In this document: piece by piece, positions 19,257 to 64,000 of the stretch
How the letters are laid out: each line of letters opens with the position of its first letter
How positions within the stretch are numbered: position 1 is the stretch's first letter
Source: an uncultured Chloroflexia bacterium
GTDB taxonomy: Bacteria > Chloroflexota > Limnocylindria > Limnocylindrales > CSP1-4
Direction: 5' to 3'
Assembly (NCBI GenBank): GCA_963809215.1
Contig: CAWEIJ010000002.1
Coordinates: 2,283,228-2,347,227 of the forward strand
Length of the DNA: 64,000 nucleotides
Position numbers and translations under genes: made by a program
Notes under the pieces: generated by a model
Seen by the model: only the letters and a program-made list of their open reading frames with translations
What the model was told of the DNA's origin: nothing
Databases searched by the model: none

Positions 19257-20289
19257 CTAGCCCGGCGACGCGGGCGCGGCGTCCGGCGCGGCCTCGGCCA
19301 CGGCGGCCGCCCCGATCGCGGCCCGGGCGTCCTCCGCGGACTCGCGGCGCCGCGTGGCCGCCTCGTCATGACGCATCCAGGCTGCCGTCATCAGGAGCAG
19401 GGCGACCAGGAATCCGGCGTCGCCGAGGCCCCACATGATCGCTCCGGCAGCCTGCTGGTCCTCGAGGGGCGTCGGGCCCCACAGGCGTCCGGTGGTCGCG
19501 TAGTGCGGGTAGAGGACGGTGCTGGAGAAGAGGATGGCCACGCCGAGGAACGAGTTGAACGGCATCTCCAGGAACATGAAGAGGAGCCGGGCCGGGTGGC
19601 TCATTCGCCAGGGACTGGGATCGCGGCCGACCATCGGCCACCAGAAGAGGATCGAGCTCCCCAGGTAGAGCAGGTGCTCGAGGTCGTGCAGCCATGGGTT
19701 CACGAGGGCGGCGTCGAAGAGGGGGGAGAAGTGCGTTCCCCACATGACCCCGGTGAAGAGGAGCCACGCGACGAGCGGATGCCCGATGATCCGCACGACG
19801 CGCGAGTGGAGGACCGGCAGGATCCACCGCCGCCGGACTTCGGGCGTCGCGACCCGCAGCGCGAGGGTGATCGGGGCGGCCATGCACGATCGCCGGCGCG
19901 GCCAGGAAGATCAGGATCACGTGCTGCACCATGTGGACCGAGAACAGGGTCGTGTCGTAGCGCTCGATGCCCGACTGGAGGGCGACCGCGATCGCCGCCA
20001 GGCCCAGCAGGAAGAACGCCGGCCGATCCCGGGGAACGGGGTTGGCCGGATGGGCGGCGTCGACCCGTCGCACGGCCCACAGGTACGCCGCCGCGGACGC
20101 GGCGAGCGGAATCCAGATCGTCGGGTCGAATGACCAGCCGAGCACGAAGGCGGCGGCGTCGGGCGCGGCCGGTACGACGCCCCCGTGCGCCGAGGCGGCA
20201 GGGGCACCGGCCAGCAGCGCGAGCACGACCGGCGCGGCACCGAGCAGGCGACGCGTGACCGGGTGGTCTCGCCGGCGGCCGGCAGCCAA
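19257..20289 (-). pseudogene. ctaG: cytochrome c oxidase assembly factor CtaG (caa3-type), one frame break near 19884
   Basis: The N-terminal half (..RRLLGAAPVVLALLAGAPAASAHGG..FSVHMVQHVILIFLAAPAIV) is in frame 19366..20541. The C-terminal half (MAAPITLALRVATPEVRRRW..FWWPMVG..) is ORF 19257..19883. The start is uncertain (TTG 20289 or GTG 20307). Confidence 0.75.
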
Positions 20290-20553
20290 TGGTTCCGACG
20301 CCGGCACGCCCGCCGAGGGGGGCGCGTCGGGGTCGGCGGCGATGCGCCCGGCGGCGGTGCGCCTGTCGGCGGTGCGCCCGGCGGCCTGCACCCGTCGGCG
20401 GCCAGGCCGGCCCGGGACGGCCGGCGGGCATCCGACGTCCTGGTCTCGGCGCGAGTCCTGACCCTTCACGGGCGCGATTGTCGCGCGAACCCGGCCCGAT
20501 CGCGACCCTCGGAGGACCAGACGTCCCGGGGGCGGGAACACCTTCCGCGAGGG

Positions 20554-20704: not shown

Positions 20705-21895
20705 ATGGGTCTGACCGGGAAGAGATGGGCTCGCCACGCGGGAATCATCGCGGCCCTCGCGGCGCTGGCGATCCTCCTCTCCGCCTGCACCGACTTCAAC
20801 GTGCGCACCGCCGTTCCCCCTGACGCGGCGTCCGTCCAGGGCCAGGCCACCCGCAACCTCTACGACATCGTCTTCGTCATCGGCGCTGCGATCTTCCTGA
20901 TCGTCGAGGGGCTGATCCTCTTCGCGGTCCTGCGCTACCGCCGCCGGAAGGGCGACGACGAGCTGCCGCCACAGATCCATGGCAACAACCGGCTCGAGAT
21001 CATCTGGACGGCGATCCCGATCGCCCTCGTCCTCGCCCTGTTCGTCCTGTCGTGGCAGACGCTCAACACCGTCGATGCGCACACCCCGACCCCGACCGTC
21101 CGCATCGGCGTCGTCGCCTACCAGTGGCAGTGGCAGTTCGTCTATGCGCCGGACGGCGTGAACTGGGAAGACTGCGGGGCGGCCGCGAACAAGGGCAAGT
21201 GCGTGACGGTGATCGGAACGCTTCCCGCCGGCGGCGACCGCGCGGGCTGGACGCCGCCCACGATGCACGTCCCCGTCAACGAGACCGTCGAGCTCCAGAT
21301 GCACTCGATCGACGTCATCCACTCGTTCTATGTCCCGGCGTTCCTCTACCAGCGCGACATCACGCCGCGCAAGGACCAGGTCATCCAGTTCACGGCCGAC
21401 AGGGTCGGCGTCTACCGCGGCCAGTGCACGCAGTTCTGCGGCCTCTACCACCAGCTCATGCAGTTCCAGGTGCAGGTGGAGCCGCGGGCCGACTACGTGG
21501 CCTGGCTCCAGCAGCAGCTGACCCCGCCCGCCTCGCCCTCGCCCGCTCCCGCTGCCTCGGCCGGCGCCGGCGCCCCGGCCGGCTCGGCGGGTGCGAGCCC
21601 GGCGGCGGGCTCGGTCTCGCTCGCGCTCACGGCGCAGGGCATCGCCTACGACAAGACCGACCTCAGCGCACCCGCCAACACGCCCTTCCAGATCGTCTTC
21701 ACCAACAACGACGCGGGGATCCCCCACAACGTCTCGATCCACACGGGCTCGCCCACCGGGCCGGAGGTCTTCAAGGGCGAGATCTTTGCCGGGACGGACT
21801 CCCGCACCTACGCCGTGCCGGCCCTGCCGGCCGGCACCTACGCCTTCGTCTGCTCGGTCCACCCGAACATGACGGGGACGCTCACCGTCAAGTAG
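20705..21895 (+). CDS. ctaC: cytochrome c oxidase subunit II (CuA) fused to a C-terminal amicyanin/plastocyanin-like type-1 copper domain
   Basis: It runs from MGLTGKRWARHAG (lipobox LLSAC). It has two TM segments and the CuA pattern H-x34-C-x3-C-x3-H-x2-M (IHSFYV...GQCTQFCGLYHQLM). An Ala/Pro/Ser linker follows, and then FQIVFTNNDAGIPHNVSIH...YAFVCSVHPNMTGTLTVK (His, C-x2-H-x2-M). Confidence 0.9.
   Translation: MGLTGKRWARHAGIIAALAALAILLSACTDFNVRTAVPPDAASVQGQATRNLYDIVFVIGAAIFLIVEGLILFAVLRYRRRKGDDELPPQIHGNNRLEIIWTAIPIALVLALFVLSWQTLNTVDAHTPTPTVRIGVVAYQWQWQFVYAPDGVNWEDCGAAANKGKCVTVIGTLPAGGDRAGWTPPTMHVPVNETVELQMHSIDVIHSFYVPAFLYQRDITPRKDQVIQFTADRVGVYRGQCTQFCGLYHQLMQFQVQVEPRADYVAWLQQQLTPPASPSPAPAASAGAGAPAGSAGASPAAGSVSLALTAQGIAYDKTDLSAPANTPFQIVFTNNDAGIPHNVSIHTGSPTGPEVFKGEIFAGTDSRTYAVPALPAGTYAFVCSVHPNMTGTLTVK
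21534..21895 (+). repeat. copy A of a 362-bp perfect direct repeat (linker plus cupredoxin domain plus stop codon)
   Basis: It appears identical by eye to 25243..25604 (constant offset 3709). The translated segments are identical in ORFs 20603..21895 and 24408..25604. Confidence 0.9.
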
Positions 21896-21905
21896 GAGAG
21901 CCCCG

Positions 21906-23543
21906 ATGGCCACCACCGTGCTCCGGCCCGCGGCGACCTACCGCACCGGGCTCTACGAATGGCTGACGACCACCGATCACAAGAAGATCGGGATCCTCTA
22001 CACGTTCAACTCGCTGATCCTCTTCCTGATCGGGGGACTCTTCGCGCTCGCCGTTCGGACCGAGCTGGCCCAGCCGGGGCTCCAGTTCATGGACGAGGCG
22101 ACCTACAACCAGATGTTCACGATGCACGCCTCGGTGATGATCTTCTGGGTCGTCATCCCGTTCCTGGCGGGCTTCGGCAACTACCTGGTCCCGCTCATGA
22201 TCGGCGCGCCGGACATGGCGTTCCCCCGGATCAACGCCCTCTCGTTCTGGCTCCTGCCGCTCTCGGCCCTGATCGCGCTCATGGGCTTCCCGCTCGGCGG
22301 GGCGGCCGCGGAGGGATGGACCAGCTACAGCCCGCTGGCGCAGTCGGCCTTCTCGAAGGGTCCCGGGACCGACCTCTGGATCGTGGCCCTGATCCTGGTG
22401 GGCACGAGCTCCATCCTGGGCGCGGTCAACTTCCTGGTCACGATCTTCAAGATGCGTGCGCCGGGAATGACGCTCTTCCGGATGCCCGTCTTCGTGTGGA
22501 CGATCATGGTCACGAGCGTCCTTGTGCTCATGGGCACGCCGGTGCTGACGAGCGCCCTGATCATGCTCTACATCGACCGCAACTTCGGCGGGAGCTTCTT
22601 CAACACGGCGCTCGCGGGCGGCAACGCGATCCTCTGGGAGAACGTCTTCTGGTTCTACAGCCACCCCGCGGTCTACATCATGATCCTGCCGGCGATGGGG
22701 ATCGTCTCCGAGGTCCTGCCCACCTTCAGCCGCAAGCCGCTCTTCGGCTACAAGGCGTTCGTGTTCGCGACCGCCGGAATCGGCGCCCTCGGCTTCTCCG
22801 TGTGGGCCCACCACATGTTCACCACGGGTTCGGTCTACCTGCCGTTCTTCAGCCTGATGACGTTCCTGATCGCCGTCCCGACCGGCGTCAAGATGTTCAA
22901 CTGGATCGCCACCCTCTACCGCGGCAAGCTCCGCTTCACGACGGCGATGCTCTTCGCGGTGGGCTTCCTGTCGCTCTTCCTCATCGGCGGGATCAACGGC
23001 GCCTTCCTCGCCGCGGTGCCCGTGGACTACCACGTCCACGCGACCTACTTCATCGTGGCCCACATCCACTACGTGCTCTTCGGCGGCTCGATCATGGGCG
23101 TCTTCGCCGGCCTCTACTACTGGTGGCCGAAGATGTTCGGACGGAAGCTGAACGAGGGCCTCGGCAAGGTCCACTTCGTCGGGATCTTCATCGGGATGAA
23201 CCTGACGTTCTTCCCGATGCACCTGCTCGGCCTGTCGGGGATGCCGCGCCGCATCGCCGACTACAGCCCGACGGCCGGCTGGAACGACCTGAACCTCCTC
23301 GCGACGATCGGCGGCTTCACGATCGCCGCCGCGATGCTGCCGTTCCTGTGGAACATCCTCGTGACGTTCCGCGGCGGAGAGCCGGCGGGTGACGATCCGT
23401 GGGAGGCGAACACGCTCGAGTGGGCGACCTCGTCGCCGCCACCGCCATACAACTTCGACCACCTGCCGCCGATCCGCTCCGAGCGACCCGTCTTCGACCA
23501 GCGCCACGCGGCCGATCCGCCGGCAGTCGCGGCAGGGCACTGA
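21906..23543 (+). CDS. ctaD: cytochrome c oxidase subunit I
   Basis: ORF 21906..23543: ..WLTTTDHKKIGILY..FWFYSHPAVYIMILPAMG..VWAHHMFT..HYVLFGG... Confidence 0.95.
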   Translation: MATTVLRPAATYRTGLYEWLTTTDHKKIGILYTFNSLILFLIGGLFALAVRTELAQPGLQFMDEATYNQMFTMHASVMIFWVVIPFLAGFGNYLVPLMIGAPDMAFPRINALSFWLLPLSALIALMGFPLGGAAAEGWTSYSPLAQSAFSKGPGTDLWIVALILVGTSSILGAVNFLVTIFKMRAPGMTLFRMPVFVWTIMVTSVLVLMGTPVLTSALIMLYIDRNFGGSFFNTALAGGNAILWENVFWFYSHPAVYIMILPAMGIVSEVLPTFSRKPLFGYKAFVFATAGIGALGFSVWAHHMFTTGSVYLPFFSLMTFLIAVPTGVKMFNWIATLYRGKLRFTTAMLFAVGFLSLFLIGGINGAFLAAVPVDYHVHATYFIVAHIHYVLFGGSIMGVFAGLYYWWPKMFGRKLNEGLGKVHFVGIFIGMNLTFFPMHLLGLSGMPRRIADYSPTAGWNDLNLLATIGGFTIAAAMLPFLWNILVTFRGGEPAGDDPWEANTLEWATSSPPPPYNFDHLPPIRSERPVFDQRHAADPPAVAAGH

Positions 23544-23545
23544 CC

Positions 23546-24181
23546 GTGGCCGCGAACAGCAGCGCCCTGACCCCGCACGTGACCGCCCTGGGCGAGAGCC
23601 GGGCCCACGGCCAGCGCGGGATCAGCAACCCGATCCTCGGGATGATCCTGTTCATCGTCTCCGAGGTGATGTTCTTCTCGGGCCTCTTCGCGGCGTACTT
23701 CAACGTCCGGCTGAACGCGACCCAGTGGCCGCCGCTGGTCAACGAGGCACCGTTCGAGCCGTTCCAGATCCACCACGAGGTCGTCCTCCCCGCCATCCTC
23801 ACGACGATCCTGGTGCTCTCGTCGGTCACGATGCAGCTCGGCGTCTCCGCGATCCGCCGCGGCGACCGGACCGCCTTCCTGCGGAACACCGGCATCACGC
23901 TCGTCCTCGGGGTGACGTTCCTGGTCGGCCAGATCTACGACTACACGCAGCTTGGCTTCGGGATCACCGACACGGCGTTCGGCAGCACGTTCTACACGAT
24001 GACCGGCTTCCATGGCGCGCACGTGCTCGGCGGTGCGATCATGCTCAGCGTCGTGCTCTACCGTGGCATGGCCGGGCAGTTCTCGGCCCGGCACCACGAC
24101 GCGGTGGAGGCGACCTCGATCTACTGGCACTTCGTGGACGTCGTCTGGATCGCGCTCTTCTCCACGCTCTACCTGCTCTGA
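23546..24181 (+). CDS. ctaE: cytochrome c oxidase subunit III
   Basis: The GTG at 23546 lies 3 nt after the ctaD stop. Motifs: ..LGMILFIVSEVMFFSGLFAAYF..TGFHGAHVLGG..YWHFVDVVWIALF... Confidence 0.9.
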   Translation: MAANSSALTPHVTALGESRAHGQRGISNPILGMILFIVSEVMFFSGLFAAYFNVRLNATQWPPLVNEAPFEPFQIHHEVVLPAILTTILVLSSVTMQLGVSAIRRGDRTAFLRNTGITLVLGVTFLVGQIYDYTQLGFGITDTAFGSTFYTMTGFHGAHVLGGAIMLSVVLYRGMAGQFSARHHDAVEATSIYWHFVDVVWIALFSTLYLL

Positions 24182-24200: not shown

Positions 24201-24383
24201 ATGATCATGCGGCCCCGCCGGGCGATGCTCATCGGCCTCGTCTTCATCGGGCTCGGCATCGTCTACGGCTCCCTCAGCCGGGACTGGGGCGGCACGACGA
24301 TGCTCTTCGCCCTTGGCGTGGCGATGGGCCTGATGGGTTACACCCTGATGGCGGCCTCGCCGCGCGGCGACGAGACCGAGTAG
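24201..24383 (+). CDS. small two-TM protein resembling the N-terminal half of actinobacterial cytochrome oxidase subunit IV (CtaF)
   Basis: MIMRPRRAMLIGLVFIGLGIVYGSLSRDWGGTTMLFALGVAMGLMGYTLMAASPRGDETE. The DWGGTT motif sits between two hydrophobic helices, as in CtaF. Confidence 0.6.
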   Translation: MIMRPRRAMLIGLVFIGLGIVYGSLSRDWGGTTMLFALGVAMGLMGYTLMAASPRGDETE

Positions 24384-24407: not shown

Positions 24408-25604
24408 ATGTCGCCCTGGAGCTCGTTCCTGGACTTCGTCAACAAGCTCGTCTCGCCCGACTGGGGCGCGCTCGTCGCGCTGGTCCCGCTCGCGCTCGCC
24501 GTTCTCGTCGTCGGCTACCTGGGCTGGGTCGCGCGCCGCGCCCTCACCGCGCCGCCGACGCGGACCCGTCCGCTCCCGACCGCGCCGATGCCGCCCAACG
24601 TCCACATGCCGGGACCGAGCCTCGCCCCGTTCCTGGCGGCTACCGGGTTCGCCTGCTTCTTCCTGGCGCTTCTCTTCGTCCACGTCGGCCCTCGCCTGGA
24701 CCCGGCGAGCAGGCAGCCGATCGCGGACTCGACGAGCTGGACGATCGCGCCGTTCGGCCTCCTCGCGATCGCGATCGGGCTGGTGGCGCTGGTCTCGGGC
24801 CTGCTCTACTGGGGGCGCGAGTCGAGCCGGGAGTACGACGCCCTGGCCGGATCGCTCACCCTCCCCGCGGTCCGCGAGGCACCGCCGCCGGGCGTCCACG
24901 TCCCGGGCCCCAGCTTCCGCCCGTTCGTGCTCGCGGTCGGAATGGCGGTGATGGTGCTCGGCGGCGTGCTGAACGTCACGATCTTCCTCGGCGGTCTCCT
25001 CATGCTGGTCATCGCGCTCCTCGGCTGGCTGCGCGATGCGCGCGCCGAGTACGGCAAGACGGTCCGCGCCGACGCGACGGGGCACCTCGAGAACATCCCC
25101 GCTCCGGGCTACCCGGTGGGAACGCTCCTGCTGTTCGCGGCGATCCTCGCGGGGAGCATCCTCATCGCGGCCGGGATCGTCCCGCCGCGGGACAGCTCCG
25201 CGACCATCTCCGCATCGGCAAAGCCGCCGGCCGCTGCCTCGGCGCCCTCGCCCGCTCCCGCTGCCTCGGCCGGCGCCGGCGCCCCGGCCGGCTCGGCGGG
25301 TGCGAGCCCGGCGGCGGGCTCGGTCTCGCTCGCGCTCACGGCGCAGGGCATCGCCTACGACAAGACCGACCTCAGCGCACCCGCCAACACGCCCTTCCAG
25401 ATCGTCTTCACCAACAACGACGCGGGGATCCCCCACAACGTCTCGATCCACACGGGCTCGCCCACCGGGCCGGAGGTCTTCAAGGGCGAGATCTTTGCCG
25501 GGACGGACTCCCGCACCTACGCCGTGCCGGCCCTGCCGGCCGGCACCTACGCCTTCGTCTGCTCGGTCCACCCGAACATGACGGGGACGCTCACCGTCAA
25601 GTAG
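24408..25604 (+). CDS. membrane protein with two CoxIV-like modules (H-x-PGPS-x-x-PF + 2 TM + EY) fused to a C-terminal type-1 copper (cupredoxin) domain
   Basis: ORF 24408..25604. Module 1 is PPNVHMPGPSLAPFLAATGF...YWGRESSREYDAL. Module 2 is PPGVHVPGPSFRPFVLAVGM...WLRDARAEYGKT. The last 119 aa are identical to the ctaC C-terminus. Confidence 0.75.
   Translation: MSPWSSFLDFVNKLVSPDWGALVALVPLALAVLVVGYLGWVARRALTAPPTRTRPLPTAPMPPNVHMPGPSLAPFLAATGFACFFLALLFVHVGPRLDPASRQPIADSTSWTIAPFGLLAIAIGLVALVSGLLYWGRESSREYDALAGSLTLPAVREAPPPGVHVPGPSFRPFVLAVGMAVMVLGGVLNVTIFLGGLLMLVIALLGWLRDARAEYGKTVRADATGHLENIPAPGYPVGTLLLFAAILAGSILIAAGIVPPRDSSATISASAKPPAAASAPSPAPAASAGAGAPAGSAGASPAAGSVSLALTAQGIAYDKTDLSAPANTPFQIVFTNNDAGIPHNVSIHTGSPTGPEVFKGEIFAGTDSRTYAVPALPAGTYAFVCSVHPNMTGTLTVK
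25243..25604 (+). repeat. copy B of the 362-bp perfect direct repeat
   Basis: See copy A. It is followed by a 15-nt imperfect echo of the junction (GTCAAGTAGCCGCAC / GTCAAGCAGCCGCAC at about 25590..25630). Confidence 0.9.
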
Positions 25605-25695: not shown

Positions 25696-26271
25696 ATGAT
25701 CTCGCACCGTCCATCCAGCGCCCGTCAGCGCGGCGCCCGGCTCGTCGTCCTGGCCACGATCGTCGTCGTGCTCGGCGGGTGCGCGACCGGCGGCGTGGCG
25801 ATCACGCCGCCTGGATCGCCGGGCGCCTCGGTGATCCAGATCGGCTCGCCGCTCATTGGCAAGGCCGCCCCGGCGCTCGTCGGCACGACGCTCGACGGGA
25901 CGCCGTTCGACCTCGCCTCGCTGCGCGGGTCGCCCGTCCTCGTCAACTTCTGGGCCTCGTGGTGCGGGCCATGCCGGGACGAGTTCCCGCTCCTCGCGGC
26001 CGCGGAGAAGCGCCACGCGGCGCAGGGCCTCAAGGTGATCGGGGTCCTCTTCAAGGACGATGCCGCCCCGGCGCGCGTCTTCGTGGCCCAGGAGAAGGCC
26101 GACTGGCCGACGGTCACGGACCCGTCCCGGACGATCGCCCAGCCGTGGGCCGTCCTCGCCCCGCCCCAGACCTACTTCATCGACCGCGCCGGGATCGTCC
26201 GGGACCTCCAGATCGGGCAGGTCCGTGACGCCGCTGAGCTCGACGCGATCCTCGCCGCGATCCTGACGTGA
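25696..26271 (+). CDS. TlpA/ResA-like thiol:disulfide oxidoreductase lipoprotein
   Basis: ORF 25696..26271 has a lipobox VLGGC, the redox motif FWASWCGPC, and a thioredoxin fold signature ..PQTYFIDRAG... Confidence 0.85.
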   Translation: MISHRPSSARQRGARLVVLATIVVVLGGCATGGVAITPPGSPGASVIQIGSPLIGKAAPALVGTTLDGTPFDLASLRGSPVLVNFWASWCGPCRDEFPLLAAAEKRHAAQGLKVIGVLFKDDAAPARVFVAQEKADWPTVTDPSRTIAQPWAVLAPPQTYFIDRAGIVRDLQIGQVRDAAELDAILAAILT

Positions 26272-32790: not shown

Positions 32791-32883
32791 CGGGCGCAGC
32801 GCCGATCCCGGCCGACCGCGATTCGACGCGCCCGCGGCAACACGGGGGTGCGAGACCCCTATTGTTCCGCGCAAGGAGGCGGG

Positions 32884-34335
32884 ATGACGCGGCATCTCGA
32901 TGCGTCGTGGCTGATCTCTGCTCTGACCCTGGCGGTCGCGGTGGGAGGGTGCGGGACGGCTCCCGCGTCCCCCTCGGCGTCTGTCGCCCCATCCGCGACG
33001 CCAGCACGGACTGCAGTCCCGACCGCGGCAGCCTCGCCGAAGCCGTCCCAGTCATCGACGCCGGCACCCTCCGCCCCCGACATCGCCGTGGGGGACGTCC
33101 CGCGGGCGGCGGCGGCGCCGGCGGAGGCGAAGAAGGCAACCGCGGCCATCAACGCCTTCGGCCTCGACCTCCTCCGGCGCGCCGGCACGCCTGGTGCCAA
33201 CGTCGTCCTCTCGCCCACCAGCATCGCGTTCGGACTGGCGATGGCCCGCGCCGGCGCCCGCGGCGAGACGGCGGCCCAGATGGACGCGGTCATGCGATCC
33301 GCCGGGGCGCAGAAGTTCGCCGACGCCATGAACGCCCTCGACGCCGCTCTCGCCGCGCGGAGCGGTACCTTCAACGACATGGGCGGCGACGCGCTGGACG
33401 TCACCCTCCGGATGGCCAACGCCACGTACGCCCAGCAGGGGATGCCGATCGAACGGTCCTTCCTCGACGCGCTCGCCGCCCGATTCGGGACGGGCGTCCG
33501 GCTGGTTGACTACGCCGCCGACCCCGAGGCAGCCCGCCGCGTCATCAACGCATGGGTGAAGAAGCAAACGGATGATCGGATCCCGGAGCTGCTCAAGCCT
33601 CCCGACGTGACCAACCTCACCCGCATCGCGCTCGTCAACGCGATCTACCTGAAGGCGCCATGGCTCGACCCCTTCGACCCGACGGACACCGCTCCGGGCC
33701 GCTTTACGCGGGCCGACAGCTCCCGCGTCACGGTGCCGATGATGCACCTGGAGAGCTCCGGTCTGGGCCCCAACTTCCCGGTCGCCACCGGCACGGGCTG
33801 GCGCGCGGTGCGCCTGCCCTACCTGGGGTCCCGATCCGAGCGCTACGGCACCGACGAACTCGCGATGACGATCATCGTCCCCGACGACCTGGCCGCCTTC
33901 GAGCGGTCGTTGACGGCGGGGACGCTTGCCGACCTCACGAACGCGAAGGACGCGGGTGGGCTGCTCGACCTCCGCAAGGTCATCCTGACGGTTCCGCGCT
34001 TCTCCATCGACGCGCGGTTCGACCTCGGCGAGGCCCTGAAGGCGATGGGGATGCCGCTCGCCTTCAATCGGCAGCGGGCGGATTTCACCGGGATCGCGAC
34101 GCTCCCGGAAGGGCTCTATATCGCGAAGGTCATCCACCAGGCGAACATCGACGTCGACGAGAAGGGTACCGAGGCGGCCGCCGCGACGGCCGTGCTGGGC
34201 GCCACGGGCGGGCCCGGTGACACCTCGAAGCCAGTCGTGATCCGCGCCGACCGCCCGTTCCTCTTCGTCGTGACCGACATCCCGACGGGCGCGGTCCTCT
34301 TCATCGGGCGGGTGACGGACCCCTCGGCGAAGTAG
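32884..34335 (+). CDS. serpin-family protease inhibitor, lipoprotein
   Basis: It runs from [24 protein letters not shown] (lipobox) in ORF 32848..34335. The serpin core is ..[25 protein letters not shown]... The inhibitory-type hinge is [13 protein letters not shown], and the closing motif is ADRPFLFVV. Confidence 0.8.
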
Positions 34336-60407: not shown

Positions 60408-61510
60408 CTACTTGACCGTCAGCGTCCCGGTCATGTTCGGATGGACGACGCAGGTGAAGCCGTACGTGCCGGCGGCGAGCGCCGGGACGTCGTAGGTCTG
60501 GGTGGCCACGCCGGTGATGATGGCGCCCTGCCAGACGATCGGACCGGTGGGCGAGCCCGTGTGGATGGCGACGTCGTGGGGGATGCCCGCGTCGTTGTTG
60601 GTGAACGCGATCTGGAACGGCACGCCGGCGGGCGCGGCCAGGTCGGTCTTGTCGAAGGCGATGTTCGCCGCCGCCAGCTGGATGACCGTCTCCGCGGTGC
60701 CGCCGGACGCGGCCGGGGAGCCGGCCGGGGAGCCGGGGCGCCGCGCTCGCTGGGGCGGCGCTGGCCCCTGGAGCGGCGCTGGCGCCGCGCCGGAGCGGCC
60801 GACGGTGACGCGAACGCATCCTTCCAGCAGGCAGGCACGGGCGTGGCGCCCGCGGGCGGGACATACGTCGGGTCGCGCCAGCCGGAGAGCGTGACCGTCT
60901 TGCCCGTCGCCGGATCCACGCCCTGGAACTGGACCGTGGACGGGGCCGTGATGAACGCGATCAGCTCCTGGAGGTTCCGGTAGTTGAGCGGCCCGGGCGG
61001 GTTGCCCTGGTCCGACCAGATGGGCATCAGCGAGTTGGCGTCACCGCACACGTAGCGGCCACCCACGGTGAGGACGCTCTGCAGGTAGCCCGGCGTGAGG
61101 TGGGTCAGGAGCTTGGCCTGGTCGTTGAGGACCGGCCCGATCCCGCCCTGGCCCTGGGCACCGTGGCAGCGCGCGCAGTTCGCCTCGAAGAGGGCGTAGC
61201 CCTGGGTGACGGCATTGACCTGCTGGACGGCGACCTCGTTCGTGAGCCGGCTCGAGTTCGGCACGCCCGGAACGCCCAGGTCGTAGAAGTAGTAGACGAT
61301 CACGAACAGCGCCACGATCGTGACCGCGAGGAAGGCCACCCATCGCGCGCTGGCACTCTGCGTGACGATCTTCGCGGCACGCTCGGGGGACAGCCCGACC
61401 GTGTGCGCGGTCGGGGGCGCGGTGAACCGCTCCGGCGGCGCGGCGAGCTCGGACGGGACGCGCGGAACGGGCAGGCGCTCCTCCGGCGGCGTGCCGGGCT
61501 CGTCGGTCAT
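60408..61510 (-). pseudogene. membrane-anchored mono-haem cytochrome c fused to a C-terminal type-1 copper (cupredoxin) domain; one frame break in the linker (about 60795)
   Basis: ORF 60431..61510 has the TM WVAFLAVTIVALFVIVYYF, the haem motif CARCHG and ..SLMPIW... The linker switches frame (..FASPSAAPA | AAPAPLQGPAPPQ..PGSPAGSPAASGGTAETVIQL). Then comes the ORF 60408..60623 frame: FQIAFTNNDAGIPHDVAIH...YGFTCVVHPNMTGTLTVK*. Confidence 0.8.
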
Positions 61511-61538
61511 CGAGCGGCTCGGGTCATCGTCATCCGTC

Positions 61539-62207
61539 TCAGATGCAGCCGGTCGAGCTCTTCGACGCGATCAGGCCCGGCTGGCCGAGCGCGACGGGCA
61601 GCGGGCCGAGCGTGAGCTTGCTCGTGTCAAGGGTCAGCTTCCCGTCGGCCCCCACGCTGACGGCGAACCGGTCGAGCGACCGAGGCGCGGGGCCAAGCTC
61701 CTTGACCTTGATCCCCAGGCGGTCGTAGCGCGAGCCGTGGCACGGACACTCGAACCAGTAGCTCTTGATGCAGAAGTTCGGCTTGCAGCCCAGGTGCGTG
61801 CAGCGCTGGTAGAGGGCGCGCACGTTCACGGCGGTCCCGTCGCCGGTCGCGTCGTCGCCCGGCACGAACTCCTGGCGCGTGGTGTCGACGAGCACGATGA
61901 ACGACCGGGCGTCCTGGTAGTACGCCGGGTAGCCGTCGCCGAACGGGATGAGCGCGTTGGCGTTCTTGATGTCGGTGAACGAGCCCAGGGGGACCTTGCC
62001 GCCGAAGCCGCCCGACAGGTTGGGCCACAGGAACCCGAGCGTGCCCGCCGACACCTCCAGGAGCCACAGGCCGACGCTCGCGCCGAGCGACGTCCTGATG
62101 AGCTGGCGCCGCGAGAGGCCTTTCGGCGCCTCCGTCCGCATCGACTTGAGCGCCTCGCCCGTGAGGGCCTGGGGCTTGCTTGCCGGCTCGACGTGGTAGT
62201 TGCTCAT
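61539..62207 (-). CDS. Rieske 2Fe-2S subunit of a cytochrome bc/b6c-type complex
   Basis: ORF 61539..62207 has a Tat-like SRRQLIRTSLGA, a TM, and the cluster motifs CTHLGC and CPCHGS. Confidence 0.9.
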   Translation of the reverse strand: MSNYHVEPASKPQALTGEALKSMRTEAPKGLSRRQLIRTSLGASVGLWLLEVSAGTLGFLWPNLSGGFGGKVPLGSFTDIKNANALIPFGDGYPAYYQDARSFIVLVDTTRQEFVPGDDATGDGTAVNVRALYQRCTHLGCKPNFCIKSYWFECPCHGSRYDRLGIKVKELGPAPRSLDRFAVSVGADGKLTLDTSKLTLGPLPVALGQPGLIASKSSTGCI

Positions 62208-62214
62208 GGGACGC

Positions 62215-62811
62215 TCACAGGCTGAAGTGGAAGCCGTTGACCCAGGGCAGCGAGAACGCGTACCCGGGACCCCGGAAGAAGATGCCCAGGAATGTCAGGA
62301 CCAGGCCGAGCATGCAGAAGAGGGAGAAGAGCACGACCGCGGTCTTCCGGTCCGAGGGCCGGTTGGCCCGGATGTTCTCGCGATCCACGTAGGGGATCAC
62401 GGCCGCCCCGACGAGCACGAAGAGGGGCACGAGCGCGCCGGCGACCGTCGGATGGAAGTAGGCCAGCAGCTCCTGCAGCCCGAGGAAGTACCACGGGGCC
62501 TTGGCGACCTCGGGCGTCACGTTCGGGTTGGCAAGCTCCTCGAGCGGCGCGTTGACGAAGAGGCCCATGAACAGGACGAAGATGCTCATGAAGACGGCCG
62601 CGAGGAACTCGATCGAGAGCAGGTGCGGCCAGGTCATGACCGTGTCGTCCGGCTCCTTCTGGACCCGGACCACGGCATCCTGCTTGACGAGCGCGAGCAG
62701 GCGATAGGGTCGAGCGGACATCGGCACGCGCTGCTTGTCGATCTCCGTCCGCCGGGTCGGATCCACCGGCAGGACCACGCGCCGCTCGGGCGGTGCCTTC
62801 TGGTCGGTCAT
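62215..62811 (-). CDS. cytochrome b C-terminal part / subunit IV (PetD-like)
   Basis: ORF 62215..62811: ..WPHLLSIEFL.. and ..APWYFLGLQELL.. (PEWY-type Qo motif variant), with 3 TM. Confidence 0.85.
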   Translation of the reverse strand: MTDQKAPPERRVVLPVDPTRRTEIDKQRVPMSARPYRLLALVKQDAVVRVQKEPDDTVMTWPHLLSIEFLAAVFMSIFVLFMGLFVNAPLEELANPNVTPEVAKAPWYFLGLQELLAYFHPTVAGALVPLFVLVGAAVIPYVDRENIRANRPSDRKTAVVLFSLFCMLGLVLTFLGIFFRGPGYAFSLPWVNGFHFSL

Positions 62812-62839
62812 CGCCCGTCCCCCGGGACCGCTCGGTCAC

Positions 62840-63568
62840 TCATAGCGGCCCGCTGATGCCCCCGTCTTTCCTGATCCGCCAGAAATGGACCGCGAGGAAG
62901 ACGGCTGCGACCAATGGGAAGACCATGATGTGGAGCACGTAGAAGCGCAGCAGGGTGTTGCCGCTGACCTCCAGTCCCGCCAGCAGGAGCGTCTTCGAGG
63001 GGGTGTTGAAGAGCGGCGCGTAGCCGGCCATGTTGGAGCCGATCGTGATGGCCCAGTACGCGATCTGGTCCCACGGCAGCAGGTAGCCCGTGAAGCTCAG
63101 GAAGAGCGTCAGGAACAGGAGGACGACGCCGACCACCCAGTTGAACTCGCGCGGCGGCTTGTACGCGCCGTGGTAGAAGACCCGCATCATGTGCAGGAAG
63201 ACGAAGAAGACCATCAGGTGGGCGGCCCACCGGTGGATGTTCCGGGTCAGGAGCCCGAACGGCACCTGCGACTGGATCTGCAGGATGTCCGAGTAGGCCT
63301 GCGTCGACGACGGGGCGTAGAAGAACATCAGGTAGACGCCGGTCACCGTCAGGACCAGGAACAGGAAGAACGAGAGCCCGCCCAGGCAGAACGTGTAGGC
63401 GAACTTGACCGCGTGCTGCCGGACCCGCACCGGGTGCAGGTGCAGGAAGACGTTGTTCATCACCGCGTACGCCCGCGACCGCTCGTCGTTGGGGTACGGG
63501 TTCCGGAACAGGGACCGGAAGACGGGGCTCCGCCGGATCGACTGGTCCACCCGCTCCAGGAAGCTCAC
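62840..63568 (-). CDS. cytochrome b6-like (N-terminal four-helix haem-binding part of split cytochrome b)
   Basis: ORF 62840..63568 has its GTG overlapping the upstream stop (GTGA). Haem His pairs: ..RNIHRWAAHLMV.. and ..FYVLHIMVFPLVAAVFLAVHFW... Confidence 0.9.
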   Translation of the reverse strand: MSFLERVDQSIRRSPVFRSLFRNPYPNDERSRAYAVMNNVFLHLHPVRVRQHAVKFAYTFCLGGLSFFLFLVLTVTGVYLMFFYAPSSTQAYSDILQIQSQVPFGLLTRNIHRWAAHLMVFFVFLHMMRVFYHGAYKPPREFNWVVGVVLLFLTLFLSFTGYLLPWDQIAYWAITIGSNMAGYAPLFNTPSKTLLLAGLEVSGNTLLRFYVLHIMVFPLVAAVFLAVHFWRIRKDGGISGPL

Positions 63569-64000
63569 CTGGCCCCTCCTGCGACGCCGGGCGTGCCGGC
63601 AAGCTGCGCGTCACGGTACGACTCCTTGTAGAGCCGGCCGTCGGTCGATACCTCCTGGAGCTCGAACCGCTCCATCGTAATGGCGTCGAATGGGCACCGC
63701 TTGACACAGAGCGCGCAGCGGATGCAGCGCTCCTCGTCGAGGATCATGGCGGCGCCCTGGTCCCAGCCGTAGGCCTCCTCGAGCTCCGGCAGGAACCCCT
63801 CCGACTTCATCTGGTTGACGTCGATCATGTGGATGACGCCCTCCGGGCAGACGTCCGCGCAGGCGCCGCACAGGACGCACCGGAAGGGATCGAACCAGAT
63901 GTTGTAGTTGCACATGAGGCAGCGCGTCGACTCGGCGACGGCCTGGGTCGCGCTGTAGCCGAGCTCCACGCCGGTCGTGAAGTTGACCTCGGGCTCGCGG
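63565..64000 (-). CDS. 4Fe-4S dicluster (ferredoxin-type) domain protein, first visible gene of the bc operon; N-terminus beyond window end
   Basis: The frame of ORF 63565..63969 is open to 64000. Motifs: ..CLMCNYNIWFDPFRCVLCGACADVCPEG.. and ..CIRCALCVKRCPFD... Confidence 0.7.
   Translation of the reverse strand, partial: REPEVNFTTGVELGYSATQAVAESTRCLMCNYNIWFDPFRCVLCGACADVCPEGVIHMIDVNQMKSEGFLPELEEAYGWDQGAAMILDEERCIRCALCVKRCPFDAITMERFELQEVSTDGRLYKESYRDAQLAGTPGVAGGAR

What the first reader, a model, noticed from the sequence alone, without database searches (positions are those of the whole stretch)
20705..21895. Cytochrome oxidase subunit II fused to an amicyanin-like blue-copper domain instead of a cytochrome c domain
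CtaC has a complete CuA pattern (H-x34-C-x3-C-x3-H-x2-M, with Gln in place of the usual Glu in CTQFC). It continues through an Ala/Pro/Ser linker into a roughly 95-aa cupredoxin with type-1 copper ligands (PHNV..., C-x2-H-x2-M in CSVHPNM). This closely follows the amicyanin signature (MPHNVHF ... CTPHPFM).

Known CoxII fusions carry cytochrome c (caa3 oxidases). A tethered blue-copper electron-entry module on an aa3-type oxidase is unusual. It implies that a cupredoxin, not cytochrome c, delivers electrons to CuA.
Basis: partly seen in the sequence, partly recalled or inferred. Interest (0 to 1): 0.7.

Follow-up and report, generated by a model that had tools for sequence, protein, structure and literature searches.

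The report
Oxidase subunit II with tethered blue-copper domain
An uncultivated soil and freshwater Chloroflexota lineage fuses the same small blue-copper electron-carrier domain to two subunits of its oxygen-reducing oxidase and to the cytochrome c of its Rieske/cytochrome b complex, which suggests a hard-wired copper relay where most bacteria use free or fused cytochrome c.

Summary
Window 20705-21895 encodes a 396-aa cytochrome oxidase subunit II. It has a lipobox, two TM helices, a complete CuA site, a 30-residue Ala/Pro/Ser linker and a 94-aa type-1 copper cupredoxin.

The fusion is not an assembly chimera. The same architecture and operon occur in more than 100 protein clusters and 45 or more species-level Limnocylindrales (Chloroflexota) MAGs, several on Mb-scale contigs. 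The four copper ligands are invariant.

The 362-nt exact repeat is real. A second copy of the domain ends a CtaF-like membrane subunit (24408-25604) of the same operon. Within-genome identity patterns point to gene conversion.

A third paralogous cupredoxin sits on the membrane-anchored cytochrome c of a Rieske/cytochrome b6 operon in the same window (60408-63969, minus strand; frameshifted here, intact in relatives). "Cupredoxin, not cytochrome c" is therefore only half right. The likely path is Rieske, then heme c, then tethered cupredoxin(s), then CuA.

Haloarchaea provide a precedent with a halocyanin fused to oxidase subunit IIa. Other unstudied CoxII-cupredoxin architectures exist, including CoxII-cytochrome c-cupredoxin in Thermomicrobiales.

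I found no paper describing this. I rate it a new variant of a known kind, of moderate to high interest. Function is inferred only.

The parts
19257..20541 (-). Caa3_CtaG-type oxidase assembly factor, divergently transcribed. In the window it is split over two reading frames.
   Evidence: Pfam PF09678 at 190.8 bits for 19257-19883. The N-terminal part lies in ORF 19366-20541. Relatives carry an intact 375-392-aa gene at this position.
20705..21895 (+). ctaC: oxidase subunit II fused to a cupredoxin. Layout: lipobox LSAC at aa 25-28, two TM helices, CuA domain, Ala/Pro/Ser linker, type-1 copper domain.
   Evidence: More than 100 homologous clusters share the architecture.
21320..21460 (+). CuA ligand stretch: H206 ... 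C241-T-Q-F-C245-G-L-Y-H249-Q-L-M252.
   Evidence: Regex check. H206, C241, C245, H249 and M252 are invariant in alignment A2.
21521..21610 (+). Ala/Pro/Ser-rich flexible linker (aa 273-302).
   Evidence: Read directly from the sequence. The linker residues at the start of the AF2 model have low pLDDT; residues 1-3 are below 50.
21611..21892 (+). Type-1 copper cupredoxin domain of CoxII (aa 303-396). Ligands are H341, C383, H386 and M389.
   Evidence: Pfam. AF2 mean pLDDT 94.7 with 8 strands. Foldseek matches auracyanin and amicyanin. The ligands are invariant in 72 sequences.
21906..23543 (+). ctaD: oxidase subunit I (A-type).
   Evidence: PF00115 at 548 bits. TIGR02891 at 709.6 against a cut-off of 670.75.
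23546..24181 (+). ctaE: short five-helix-type subunit III (211 aa).
   Evidence: PF00510. NCBIfam aa3_CtaE_Actin at 155.5 bits, below its 190 cut-off.
24201..24383 (+). Conserved 60-aa two-helix ORF. It may be a small oxidase subunit.
   Evidence: A 59-60-aa gene occupies the same position in L001, L002 and L079. It has no Pfam or NCBIfam hit.
24408..25604 (+). ORF-X: six-helix membrane protein with two HxPGPSxxPF repeats (CtaF-like) and a C-terminal cupredoxin (25320-25601) identical to that of CoxII.
   Evidence: Pfam Cupredoxin_1 at 38.6 bits and Cyt_c_ox_IV at 21.9 bits, below its 26.9 cut-off. Homologs carry PF12270 plus PF13473. AF2 mean pLDDT 81. The Foldseek result is not significant, though CtaF chains are among the top hits.
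21534..21895 (+). Copy 1 of the exact 362-nt direct repeat (part of the linker, the cupredoxin and the stop codon).
25243..25604 (+). Copy 2 of the exact 362-nt direct repeat.
   Evidence: In the near-identical contig L079 the CoxII-tail copy differs from the window repeat by 1 nt and the ORF-X-tail copy by none.
25696..26271 (+). TlpA/ResA-like membrane thiol-disulfide oxidoreductase. Its likely role is maturation of the copper or heme c sites.
   Evidence: PF00578 and PF08534. The position is conserved in relatives.
61539..63969 (-). Rieske/cytochrome b6-type complex III genes: the C-terminus of a 4Fe-4S protein (63565-63969), cytochrome b6 (62840-63568), subunit IV (62215-62811) and Rieske (61539-62207).
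   Evidence: Pfam. The same operon is present in relative L080.
60408..61510 (-). Membrane-anchored monoheme cytochrome c (CARCH) fused to a third cupredoxin (60411-60686). A frameshift lies in the linker, at roughly 60695-60794.
   Evidence: Three-frame translation. Pfam on both pieces. More than 100 intact homologs of 344-392 aa carry cytochrome c plus Cupredoxin_1.

Best explanation
**What it is.** The gene encodes subunit II of an A-type heme-copper oxidase. Its external CuA domain is followed, through a flexible ~30-residue Ala/Pro/Ser tether, by a type-1 (blue) copper cupredoxin on the outer face of the membrane.

**How it most likely works.** The cupredoxin is a built-in electron-entry module, the copper counterpart of the cytochrome c domain of caa3 oxidases.
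- Electrons leave menaquinol at the Rieske/cytochrome b6 complex encoded ~35 kb away.
- They pass Rieske FeS and the membrane-anchored heme c of that complex, and reach the cupredoxin fused to that cytochrome c.
- They are handed to the cupredoxins tethered to the oxidase, one on CoxII and one on the CtaF-like subunit.
- Those cupredoxins reduce CuA, and electrons continue to heme a and then heme a3/CuB.
- The two oxidase-borne cupredoxins are interchangeable. In the window's subclade they are kept (near-)identical by gene conversion.

**Shown:** the domain architecture, the intact and conserved metal ligands, the predicted fold, the conserved operons and linkage, and the concerted evolution.

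**Inferred:** copper occupancy, the direction and order of electron transfer, and physical association of complexes III and IV.
For: **Architecture and metal sites**
- Architecture and ligands.
- The WQW motif (aa 141-143) matches the position of the conserved CoxII Trp that takes electrons into CuA (identification from my own knowledge). W143 is invariant.
- H341, C383, H386 and M389 are invariant across 72 homologs at 56-92% identity.
- The type-1 copper motif is intact in 100 of 120 CoxII hits and 94 of 120 ORF-X hits.

**Fold**
- AF2 mean pLDDT is 94.7 with an 8-strand sandwich.
- Foldseek probability is 1.0 to electron-transfer cupredoxins. Top hits are auracyanins 6kol, 2aan and 1qhq (TMq 0.80-0.82), then amicyanin, rusticyanin and plastocyanin.

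**Conservation**
- The same operon sits on 2.7-Mb and 1.0-Mb contigs.
- Both fusions occur in 45 species-level genomes.

**A matching donor**
- The window holds a Rieske/cytochrome b6 operon whose cytochrome c carries a paralogous cupredoxin (70.7% aa identity).
- That fusion is conserved in more than 100 clusters.

**Topology**
- Predicted topology puts all three cupredoxins outside the membrane. For ORF-X this follows from six helices with an N-out orientation and the positive-inside rule (helices; inference).

**Precedents**
- Halocyanin is fused to subunit IIa in haloarchaeal ba3 oxidases (PMC3128077).
- Membrane-tethered auracyanin B is proposed as the respiratory carrier in Chloroflexus (PMC3150298).
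- CtaE and CtaF form the III-IV interface in the mycobacterial supercomplex (PMC8361435).
Against: - There is no biochemical, spectroscopic or expression data. The lineage is known only from MAGs.
- Some relatives have CoxII without the domain: L031 on a long contig, and L019 and L022. The CoxII-borne copy is therefore not essential.
- Heme c of the complex III subunit could in principle reduce CuA directly, which would make the cupredoxins a side branch.
- The identification of ORF-X as CtaF-like rests on sub-threshold evidence: Pfam 21.9 bits against 26.9, and Foldseek E of 0.25 or worse.
- The cytochrome c-cupredoxin gene is frameshifted in this window. This is probably an assembly indel, but that is unproven.
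Confidence: 0.62

Rival explanations
1. The cupredoxin domains are entry ports for donors other than complex III, or exits to other acceptors. Candidates include periplasmic-side dehydrogenases, Fe(II) or Mn(II), and copper nitrite reductase. They would form a branch point rather than the main link between complexes III and IV.
For: - Amicyanin, the closest sequence relative, serves a dehydrogenase.
- Rusticyanin-type folds are among the Foldseek hits.
- Multi-cupredoxin tandem proteins exist in the same homology neighbourhood.
- The CoxII copy is dispensable in some relatives.
Against: - The only conserved genomic partners are the oxidase itself and the Rieske/cytochrome b6 operon, whose cytochrome c carries the same domain.
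- No dehydrogenase or NirK gene was seen in the conserved neighbourhood.
Confidence: 0.15
2. The domains handle copper instead of electrons. They would act as a tethered chaperone or store that supplies CuA and CuB during assembly.
For: - The operon is flanked by a CtaG assembly factor and a TlpA-like thiol reductase.
- Some Cupredoxin_1 (PF13473) family members in the PDB are uncharacterised copper- or zinc-binding proteins (4hcf, 4hcg).
Against: - The full His-Cys-His-Met set with a C-x2-H-x2-M loop is the signature of electron-transfer blue copper sites. It is invariant.
- The same domain on a complex III cytochrome c has no obvious chaperone rationale.
- The best structural matches are bona fide redox carriers.
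Confidence: 0.08
3. The fusion is an assembly chimera, created because the assembler walked through the 362-nt repeat.
For: - The two copies are 100% identical, and the repeat ends exactly at both stop codons.
- The window shows indel noise, with frameshifts in ctaG and in the cytochrome c gene.
Against: - Both left junctions (CoxII-linker and ORF-X-linker) and both right junctions are present.
- The same double fusion is found in 45 species-level genomes, including contigs of 1-3.5 Mb.
- In many of these genomes the two copies are diverged (35-87% identity), so no repeat exists to mislead an assembler.
- A near-identical independent contig (L079) has the same layout. Its CoxII-tail copy differs from the window repeat by 1 nt and its ORF-X-tail copy by none.
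Confidence: 0.01
4. The cupredoxin domains are mainly structural. They would act as docking modules that hold complexes III and IV together, with redox-silent or vestigial copper sites.
For: - The CtaF-like carrier would lie at the III-IV interface by analogy with mycobacteria.
- Homogenisation of the two copies could reflect a shared docking surface.
Against: - Strict conservation of all four copper ligands over deep divergence, including the subclade where the two copies share only 35-68% identity, argues for a functional metal site.
Confidence: 0.05

Closest known systems
caa3-type cytochrome oxidase subunit II (CoxII-cytochrome c fusion; Thermus, Bacillus, Rhodothermus)
   Same: - It is an A-type oxidase.
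- An electron-carrier domain is fused through a linker to the C-terminus of the CuA domain of subunit II.
- A Caa3_CtaG assembly factor lies next to the operon.
   Different: - The carrier here is a type-1 copper cupredoxin, not a heme c domain. There is no CxxCH motif.
- A second copy sits on another oxidase subunit.
Haloarchaeal ba3 oxidase subunit IIa fused to halocyanin (Prunetti et al. 2011, PMC3128077)
   Same: - A blue-copper electron donor is covalently fused to a membrane subunit of the terminal oxidase it is thought to reduce.
   Different: - That system is archaeal and a B-type oxidase.
- There the halocyanin is N-terminal to a single helix (IIa) and is not attached to the CuA-bearing polypeptide.
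- Here the system is bacterial and A-type, with C-terminal fusions to CoxII and to a CtaF-like subunit, plus a third fusion on complex III.
Auracyanins A and B of Chloroflexus and Roseiflexus
   Same: - They give the best structural matches (6kol, 2aan and 1qhq, TMq ~0.8).
- They come from the same phylum.
- Membrane-tethered AuraB is proposed to carry electrons in respiration.
   Different: - Auracyanins are separate proteins, partnered with Alternative Complex III.
- As I recall, their ligand loop is longer (C-x4-H-x4-M). Here it is C-x2-H-x2-M.
- Here the partner appears to be a Rieske/cytochrome b6 complex.
Amicyanin (Paracoccus; TIGR02657)
   Same: - It is the best sequence match in the PDB (E = 1.9e-6).
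- It shares the short C-x2-H-x2-M loop (CTPHPFM against CSVHPNM) and the PHNV first-His motif.
   Different: - The domain scores 28 against a cut-off of 110 for the equivalog.
- No methylamine dehydrogenase gene was seen in the conserved neighbourhood examined.
- It is a fused domain, not a soluble protein.
Actinobacterial bcc-aa3 supercomplex (CtaC, CtaD, CtaE, CtaF)
   Same: - CoxII and CoxIII are closest to the actinobacterial NCBIfam models.
- Subunit III is short and is accompanied by a CtaF-like protein.
- There is no soluble carrier; electron carriers are fixed to the complexes.
   Different: - Actinobacteria bridge complexes III and IV with a diheme cytochrome cc.
- Here there is a monoheme cytochrome c plus three tethered cupredoxins.
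- ORF-X is a duplicated, ~400-aa CtaF-like protein.
CoxII-cytochrome c-cupredoxin and CoxII-2x cupredoxin proteins in public metagenomes (for example MFL5759847.1, a Thermomicrobiales MAG)
   Same: - Subunit II carries a C-terminal type-1 copper domain.
   Different: - These keep a heme c domain between CuA and the cupredoxin, or carry two cupredoxins in tandem.
- In the two cytochrome c-containing proteins (P0510, P0503) the cupredoxin has a long azurin-like ligand loop, which suggests a separate fusion event.
- They are uncharacterised and annotated only as 'cytochrome c oxidase subunit II'.

Membership tests
Heme-copper oxidase subunit II (CoxB/CtaC, A-type cytochrome c oxidase) | Two N-terminal TM helices plus an external cupredoxin domain, scoring above the curated HMM cut-offs. 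| tested here: met
   PF02790 at 44 bits (cut-off 22.8) and PF00116 at 51.9 bits (cut-off 22). TIGR02866 at 164.3 against 147.7.
Heme-copper oxidase subunit II (CoxB/CtaC, A-type cytochrome c oxidase) | Binuclear CuA ligands H...C-x3-C-x3-H-x2-M. | tested here: met
   H206, C241, C245, H249 and M252 are present and invariant in 21 aligned homologs.
Heme-copper oxidase subunit II (CoxB/CtaC, A-type cytochrome c oxidase) | Encoded alongside subunits I and III. | tested here: met
   ctaD lies 10 nt downstream and passes TIGR02891 (709.6 against 670.75). ctaE follows it.
Heme-copper oxidase subunit II (CoxB/CtaC, A-type cytochrome c oxidase) | Glu between the two Cys residues, whose side chain also ligates the Mg/Mn site (a canonical A-type feature; from my own knowledge). 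| tested here: not met
   The motif is CTQFC, with Gln243. P0019 has Ser at this position, while P0115, P0116 and P0120 keep CAELC. The partner Asp in CoxI is Ala (VHATYF). The CuA ligand itself is the backbone carbonyl, so CuA is not compromised.
caa3-type subunit II | C-terminal c-type cytochrome domain with CxxCH. | tested here: not met
   There is no CxxCH motif anywhere in the protein and no cytochrome c Pfam hit.
Type-1 (blue) copper cupredoxins (PF00127 / PF13473) | Cupredoxin beta-sandwich fold. | tested here: met
   AF2 mean pLDDT 94.7 with 8 strands. Foldseek probability 1.0 to auracyanin, amicyanin, rusticyanin and plastocyanin. PF13473 at 57.5 bits (cut-off 27) and PF00127 at 24.6 bits (cut-off 21.2).
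Type-1 (blue) copper cupredoxins (PF00127 / PF13473) | Ligand set: His (N-terminal) plus Cys-His-Met in the C-terminal loop. | tested here: met
   H341, C383, H386 and M389. They are invariant in 72 sequences. The motif is intact in 100 of 120 CoxII hits and 94 of 120 ORF-X hits.
Type-1 (blue) copper cupredoxins (PF00127 / PF13473) | Actual copper binding, with a ~600-nm charge-transfer band and narrow-hyperfine EPR signal. | not testable with these tools
   This requires purified protein.
Amicyanin (TIGR02657 equivalog) | Score above the equivalog cut-off, and association with methylamine dehydrogenase. | tested here: not met
   It scores 28.2 bits against a cut-off of 110.2. No mau genes were seen in the conserved neighbourhood.
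Auracyanin | A free-standing, lipid- or helix-anchored blue copper protein of Chloroflexota with an auracyanin fold. | tested here: inconclusive
   The fold match is the best in the PDB (TMq 0.80-0.82, E ~2e-8). Sequence identity is only 21-24%, the domain is fused, and the ligand-loop spacing differs (the auracyanin spacing is from memory).
Actinobacterial CtaF / Cyt_c_ox_IV (PF12270), for ORF-X | A match to PF12270 above the gathering score, or structural similarity to CtaF. | tested here: inconclusive
   The window protein scores 21.9 bits against 26.9. Many homologs carry precomputed PF12270 hits. Foldseek is not significant (E of 0.25 or worse), although mycobacterial and corynebacterial supercomplex chains of CtaF size (139-143 aa; 6hwh_S, 8hcr_H, 7q21_F) rank 2, 3 and 18. 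There is no PDB sequence hit.
Haloarchaeal halocyanin-subunit IIa fusion | B-type (ba3) oxidase, with halocyanin N-terminal to the IIa helix. | tested here: not met
   The oxidase here is A-type (TIGR02891). The domain is C-terminal to the CuA domain or to the CtaF-like subunit. The resemblance is functional only.

The most novel reading that the evidence does not exclude
Limnocylindrales run the high-potential end of their respiratory chain as a hard-wired 'copper relay'.
- Three paralogous tethered blue-copper domains bridge a Rieske/cytochrome b6 complex and an aa3-type oxidase within a III-IV supercomplex, with no diffusible carrier. One domain is on the complex III cytochrome c, one on CoxII and one on a CtaF-like interface subunit.
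- The two oxidase-borne domains are kept identical by gene conversion because they must fit the same donor and acceptor surfaces.
- This would be a third design for coupling complexes III and IV, alongside soluble cytochrome c and the actinobacterial diheme cytochrome cc.
Probability: 0.35. Interest if true: 0.75.

Novelty: new variant of a known kind. Interest (0 to 1): 0.58.

Why it matters
- Limnocylindria (the Ellin6529 / CSP1-4 lineages) are reported as widespread in soils, sediments and lakes (papers found) and are known only from MAGs in what I retrieved.
- If the tethered cupredoxins carry the electrons, this class uses a largely copper-based, carrier-free link between complexes III and IV.
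- That would extend the caa3 principle of fusing the carrier to the oxidase from heme to copper.
- It would give a bacterial A-type counterpart to the haloarchaeal halocyanin fusion.
- It offers a natural CuA-type-1 copper two-domain protein for studying copper-to-copper electron transfer.
- The identical domain copies are a clean case of gene conversion acting on a single domain shared by two different genes of one operon.
- Practically, these proteins are annotated only as "cytochrome c oxidase subunit II", "plastocyanin" or "cupredoxin domain-containing protein". Metabolic reconstructions can therefore miss the architecture.

Tried and rejected
- **Assembly chimera.** Rejected, for the reasons given under rival explanations.
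- **Membership in amicyanin.** Rejected on the NCBIfam cut-off.
- **Sequence search of the ORF-X membrane part against the PDB.** It found nothing. Its AF2 model gave only non-significant Foldseek hits, so the CtaF assignment stays tentative.
- **Exact-sequence look-up of the window's own CoxII.** It returned nothing. The nearest public contig, L079, is 96.8% identical with 111 gap openings over 13.8 kb.
- **Literature.** Eight full-text searches and targeted reading of two Limnocylindria genomics papers found no description of a CoxII-cupredoxin fusion. The only fusion precedent found was halocyanin-IIa.
- **My first within-genome identity table.** It used ungapped comparison and under-estimated identity for the distant subclade. 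It was redone with gapped alignment.
- **Pairing of proteins to genomes by equal contig length.** This is an inference. It was later confirmed for the loci fetched.
- **Alternative Complex III.** I did not find it, and could not search whole genomes for it. Its presence or absence in these genomes is unknown.
Full report
**1. The observation**

- A lipoprotein-type signal with the lipobox LSAC (aa 25-28) is followed by two hydrophobic helices and a CuA domain.
- The CuA pattern is H206-x34-C241-x3-C245-x3-H249-x2-M252, with Gln243 in CTQFC.
- The 30-residue linker TPPASPSPAPAASAGAGAPAGSAGASPAAG comes next.
- A 94-residue domain follows, with His341 (GIPHNV) and C383-S-V-H386-P-N-M389.
- There is no CxxCH motif.

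Pfam finds four domains above their gathering scores: COX2_TM (44 bits), COX2 (51.9 bits), Cupredoxin_1 (57.5 bits) and Copper-bind (24.6 bits). NCBIfam's CoxB equivalog is passed at 164.3 against 147.7. Downstream lie subunit I (TIGR02891, 709.6 against 670.75) and a short subunit III. A Caa3_CtaG assembly factor lies upstream on the other strand, and a TlpA/ResA-like redoxin lies downstream.

**2. The C-terminal domain is a blue-copper cupredoxin**

- The best PDB matches by sequence are amicyanin (1id2, E = 1.9e-6), plastocyanins and auracyanin A. The alignment places PHNV and the C-x2-H-x2-M loop on the amicyanin ligands.
- An AlphaFold2 model of aa 297-396, built with 71 homologs, has mean pLDDT 94.7 and eight strands.
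- Foldseek against the PDB returns only cupredoxins, at probability 1.0. The three auracyanin structures from Roseiflexus and Chloroflexus are among the top four hits (6kol, 2aan and 1qhq; TMq 0.80-0.82). Amicyanin, rusticyanin and plastocyanin follow.
- The four ligands are invariant in the 72-sequence alignment, which spans 56-92% identity.
- The domain is not an amicyanin in the NCBIfam sense: it scores 28 bits against a cut-off of 110.

**3. The fusion is not a chimera**

It ends at the TAG of both genes. The second copy is the C-terminus of the last gene of the operon, ORF-X (24408-25604). Several results exclude an assembly artefact.
- A search of 5.8 billion proteins found more than 100 clusters at 49-87% identity covering the full length, with the same Pfam architecture. 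Where named, the source organisms are Candidatus Limnocylindrales or Chloroflexi.
- The whole operon recurs on contigs of 2.69 Mb and 1.04 Mb. The order is ctaG (reverse strand), CoxII-cupredoxin, CoxI, CoxIII, a 59-60-aa ORF, ORF-X-cupredoxin, then the redoxin.
- A scan of one genome per GTDB species returned 76 loci. All full-length matches are Chloroflexota MAGs, most titled Limnocylindrales or "uncultured Chloroflexia". Many sit on contigs of hundreds of kb to 3.5 Mb. Dehalococcoidia-type hits at 30-35% identity stop before the cupredoxin.
- 45 non-redundant genomes carry both cupredoxin copies ~3.7 kb apart.
- A near-identical independent contig (L079, 96.8% identity) has the same layout. 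Its CoxII-tail copy differs from the window repeat by 1 nt and its ORF-X-tail copy by none.

**4. Concerted evolution of the two oxidase-borne domains**

- In the window's subclade (18 genomes), the two domains of one genome are 75-100% identical in protein. Twelve of the 18 pairs are 100% identical.
- At the DNA level (ungapped), 11 of 17 pairs with a DNA comparison are at least 99% identical, apart from the window and its near-duplicate L079.
- In most of these genomes the best ortholog from another species reaches only 82-96%; one species pair (L004/L023) has identical domains.
- In the deeper subclade (27 genomes), the two domains share only 35-68% identity, whereas orthologs reach up to 98%.
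- Both fusions are therefore old within Limnocylindrales. In one subclade the domain-coding tails are being homogenised, presumably by gene conversion. The tract in the window starts inside the linker and stops at the stop codon.
- Three relatives have a CoxII that ends in the linker while ORF-X keeps its domain. L031 is on a long contig and lacks the domain cleanly. L019 and L022 retain a "GTCAAGTAG" remnant of the last codons. The CoxII-borne copy can therefore be lost secondarily.

**5. ORF-X**

- ORF-X has about six helices and two HxPGPSxxPF repeats (aa 66-75 and 164-173), followed by a linker and the cupredoxin.
- Its homologs (739 hits; the best 120 listed are at 42-100% identity) nearly all keep the cupredoxin. 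Many carry a Cyt_c_ox_IV (PF12270, actinobacterial CtaF) hit. JGI calls them "plastocyanin".
- The window protein's own PF12270 score is sub-threshold, at 21.9 against 26.9.
- The PDB sequence search is empty.
- Foldseek on the AF2 model (mean pLDDT 81) is not significant. It nevertheless lists mycobacterial and corynebacterial supercomplex chains of CtaF size (139-143 aa) at ranks 2, 3 and 18.
- The identification as a duplicated CtaF-like subunit is therefore tentative.
- It would fit the short, CtaE-like subunit III. In mycobacteria, CtaE and CtaF together replace canonical subunit III and form the interface with complex III (PMC8361435).
- With the N-terminus outside and six helices, the positive-inside rule puts the cupredoxin outside, on the CuA side. 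This is my inference.

**6. A third cupredoxin on complex III**

The minus strand at 61539-63969 encodes a Rieske/cytochrome b6-type complex.
- The C-terminus of a 4Fe-4S protein lies at 63565-63969.
- Cytochrome b6 lies at 62840-63568.
- Subunit IV lies at 62215-62811.
- Rieske lies at 61539-62207.

The next gene (61510 down to 60408) begins as a membrane-anchored monoheme cytochrome c (CARCH). After a frameshift inside an Ala/Pro/Ser linker, it continues in another frame as a cupredoxin (…GIPHDV…CVVHPNM…TLTVK*). This cupredoxin is 70.7% identical in protein and 77.9% in DNA to the cox copies.

- More than 100 homologous clusters (60-95% identity, 344-392 aa) are intact cytochrome c-cupredoxin fusions. 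JGI calls them "plastocyanin/cytochrome c553".
- In the relative L080 the gene follows Rieske in the same operon. It sits on the same 1.04-Mb contig as the cox operon, ~20-35 kb away, as in the window.
- The window's frameshift is most simply an assembly indel. ctaG is also split over two frames here.

**7. How it most likely works**

All three cupredoxins are predicted to lie outside the membrane on flexible tethers. The most economical model has four steps.
1. Menaquinol is oxidised by the Rieske/cytochrome b6 complex.
2. Electrons pass Rieske FeS and heme c to the cupredoxin fused to that cytochrome.
3. They are passed to the cupredoxins tethered to the oxidase.
4. Those cupredoxins dock near the conserved WQW motif (W143 invariant). 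From my own knowledge, this corresponds to the Trp that conducts electrons into CuA.

This is the logic of caa3 oxidases, with copper in place of heme. It suits a phylum generally regarded as monoderm (my own knowledge), where carriers must be anchored. Typical potentials of amicyanin and auracyanin-type sites, and of CuA, both ~+0.2-0.3 V (my own knowledge), make the steps plausible.

Architecture, ligands, fold, conservation and linkage are shown. Copper occupancy, the direction and order of transfer, and supercomplex formation are inferred. I put ~0.6 on the electron-entry role. The rivals are a branch point for other donors, copper handling, and a purely structural role. They are less consistent with the invariant ligand set and with the presence of the same domain on complex III.

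**8. Comparison with what is known**

- The system works like a caa3 subunit II but fails that family's defining feature, because it has no heme c domain.
- It is a bona fide CoxB and a bona fide type-1 cupredoxin by every feature testable here.
- The nearest published precedent for a blue-copper protein covalently joined to an oxidase subunit is the halocyanin-subunit IIa fusion of haloarchaeal ba3 oxidases (PMC3128077). That case differs in domain of life, oxidase family, fusion partner and orientation.
- Auracyanins are the closest structures. Membrane-tethered AuraB is proposed as the respiratory carrier in Chloroflexus, where an auracyanin-like gene (Caur_2581) even neighbours a COX II gene (Caur_2582) (PMC3150298).
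- Blue-copper partners of oxidases are also known from Sulfolobus (sulfocyanin) and from Acidithiobacillus (rusticyanin, AcoP). Cyanobacteria use plastocyanin in this role. All three statements rest on my own knowledge.
- An exhaustive HMMER scan of 1.84 billion representatives shows further unstudied architectures:
  - CoxII plus one cupredoxin at 34-40% identity.
  - CoxII plus two tandem cupredoxins (P0372, P0377).
  - CoxII plus cytochrome c plus cupredoxin. One is P0510 (MFL5759847.1) from a Thermomicrobiales MAG, in a caa3-type operon. The other is P0503.
  - In P0510 and P0503 the cupredoxin has a long, azurin-like ligand loop, which implies a separate fusion event.
- Eight full-text searches and two Limnocylindria genomics papers yielded no description of any of these.

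**9. Verdict**

The fusion is real and probably an electron-entry module, but cytochrome c is still in the chain, there are three cupredoxin fusions rather than one, and a blue-copper/oxidase fusion has a haloarchaeal precedent.

I rate it a new variant of a known kind, with interest of about 0.58. The more ambitious reading is a carrier-free copper relay inside a III-IV supercomplex, with gene conversion keeping two relay domains identical. It is not excluded, and it would be of clear interest to bioenergetics if shown.

Noticed in passing
window 21534-21895 and 25243-25604; loci L001-L065: The two cupredoxin-coding tails of the cox operon evolve in concert. Twelve of 18 genomes in the window's subclade have protein-identical pairs (11 of 17 pairs at least 99% identical in DNA), while orthologs between species mostly differ by 4-18%. 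In the deeper subclade the two copies share only 35-68% identity. This looks like domain-limited gene conversion between two different genes.
   Followed up: yes
window 60408-61510 (-): A membrane-anchored monoheme cytochrome c of the Rieske/cytochrome b6 operon is fused to a third cupredoxin. The window copy has a frameshift in the Ala/Pro/Ser linker (~60695-60794), while more than 100 homologs are intact.
   Followed up: yes
window 19257-20541 (-): The ctaG (Caa3_CtaG) gene is split over two reading frames (19257-19883 and 19366-20541). Relatives have one 375-392-aa gene. Together with the cytochrome c frameshift and the 111 gap openings against L079, this points to indel noise in the assembly.
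   Followed up: partly
window 21431-21433 (CoxII Q243) and CoxI motif VHATYF (CoxI aa ~377-382, window ~23034-23051): Both side-chain ligands of the canonical Mg/Mn site at the subunit I/II interface appear to be replaced. These are Glu in CxExC of subunit II and Asp in LHDTYY of subunit I. The replacements are Gln in CoxII (Ser in P0019) and Ala in CoxI. The oxidase may lack that metal site. The identification of the canonical residues is from my own knowledge.
   Followed up: partly
window 63565-63969 (-), running off the window end; L080 2030-3865: The Rieske/cytochrome b6 operon starts with a large Fer4 plus Pyr_redox_2 (GltD-like) iron-sulfur flavoprotein, 611 aa in L080. Its stop overlaps the cytochrome b6 start. 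This is an unusual first gene for a bc-type operon.
   Followed up: no
window 58838-60355 (-); L080 7115-8605: A ~500-aa Kelch-repeat beta-propeller protein with terminal hydrophobic helices directly follows the cytochrome c-cupredoxin gene, both in the window and in the relative L080. It may be an accessory subunit or an unrelated neighbour.
   Followed up: no
L019 and L022 (~6890-6905), L031: CoxII lacks the cupredoxin in three relatives while ORF-X keeps it. L019 and L022 retain the last codons (GTCAAGTAG, 'VK*') out of frame right after the linker, as if the domain had been excised. L031, on a 252-kb contig, lacks it cleanly.
   Followed up: partly
P0372, P0377, P0503, P0510; locus L081: Other CoxII architectures exist in public data: CoxII plus two tandem cupredoxins, and CoxII plus cytochrome c plus cupredoxin (Thermomicrobiales MAG GCA_045804965.1, in a caa3-type operon). 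Tandem arrays of at least 3-5 cupredoxin domains without a COX2 match also exist (P0384, P0391, P0446, P0488).
   Followed up: partly
window 24201-24383 (+): A 60-aa two-helix ORF is conserved between ctaE and ORF-X in every relative examined. It has no family hit and may be an undescribed small oxidase subunit.
   Followed up: partly
window 32848-34335 (+) and ~35 kb (L079 20887-21197): A bacterial serpin (PF00079, 300 bits) lies next to a gene with an EutN/CcmL microcompartment-vertex domain.
   Followed up: no
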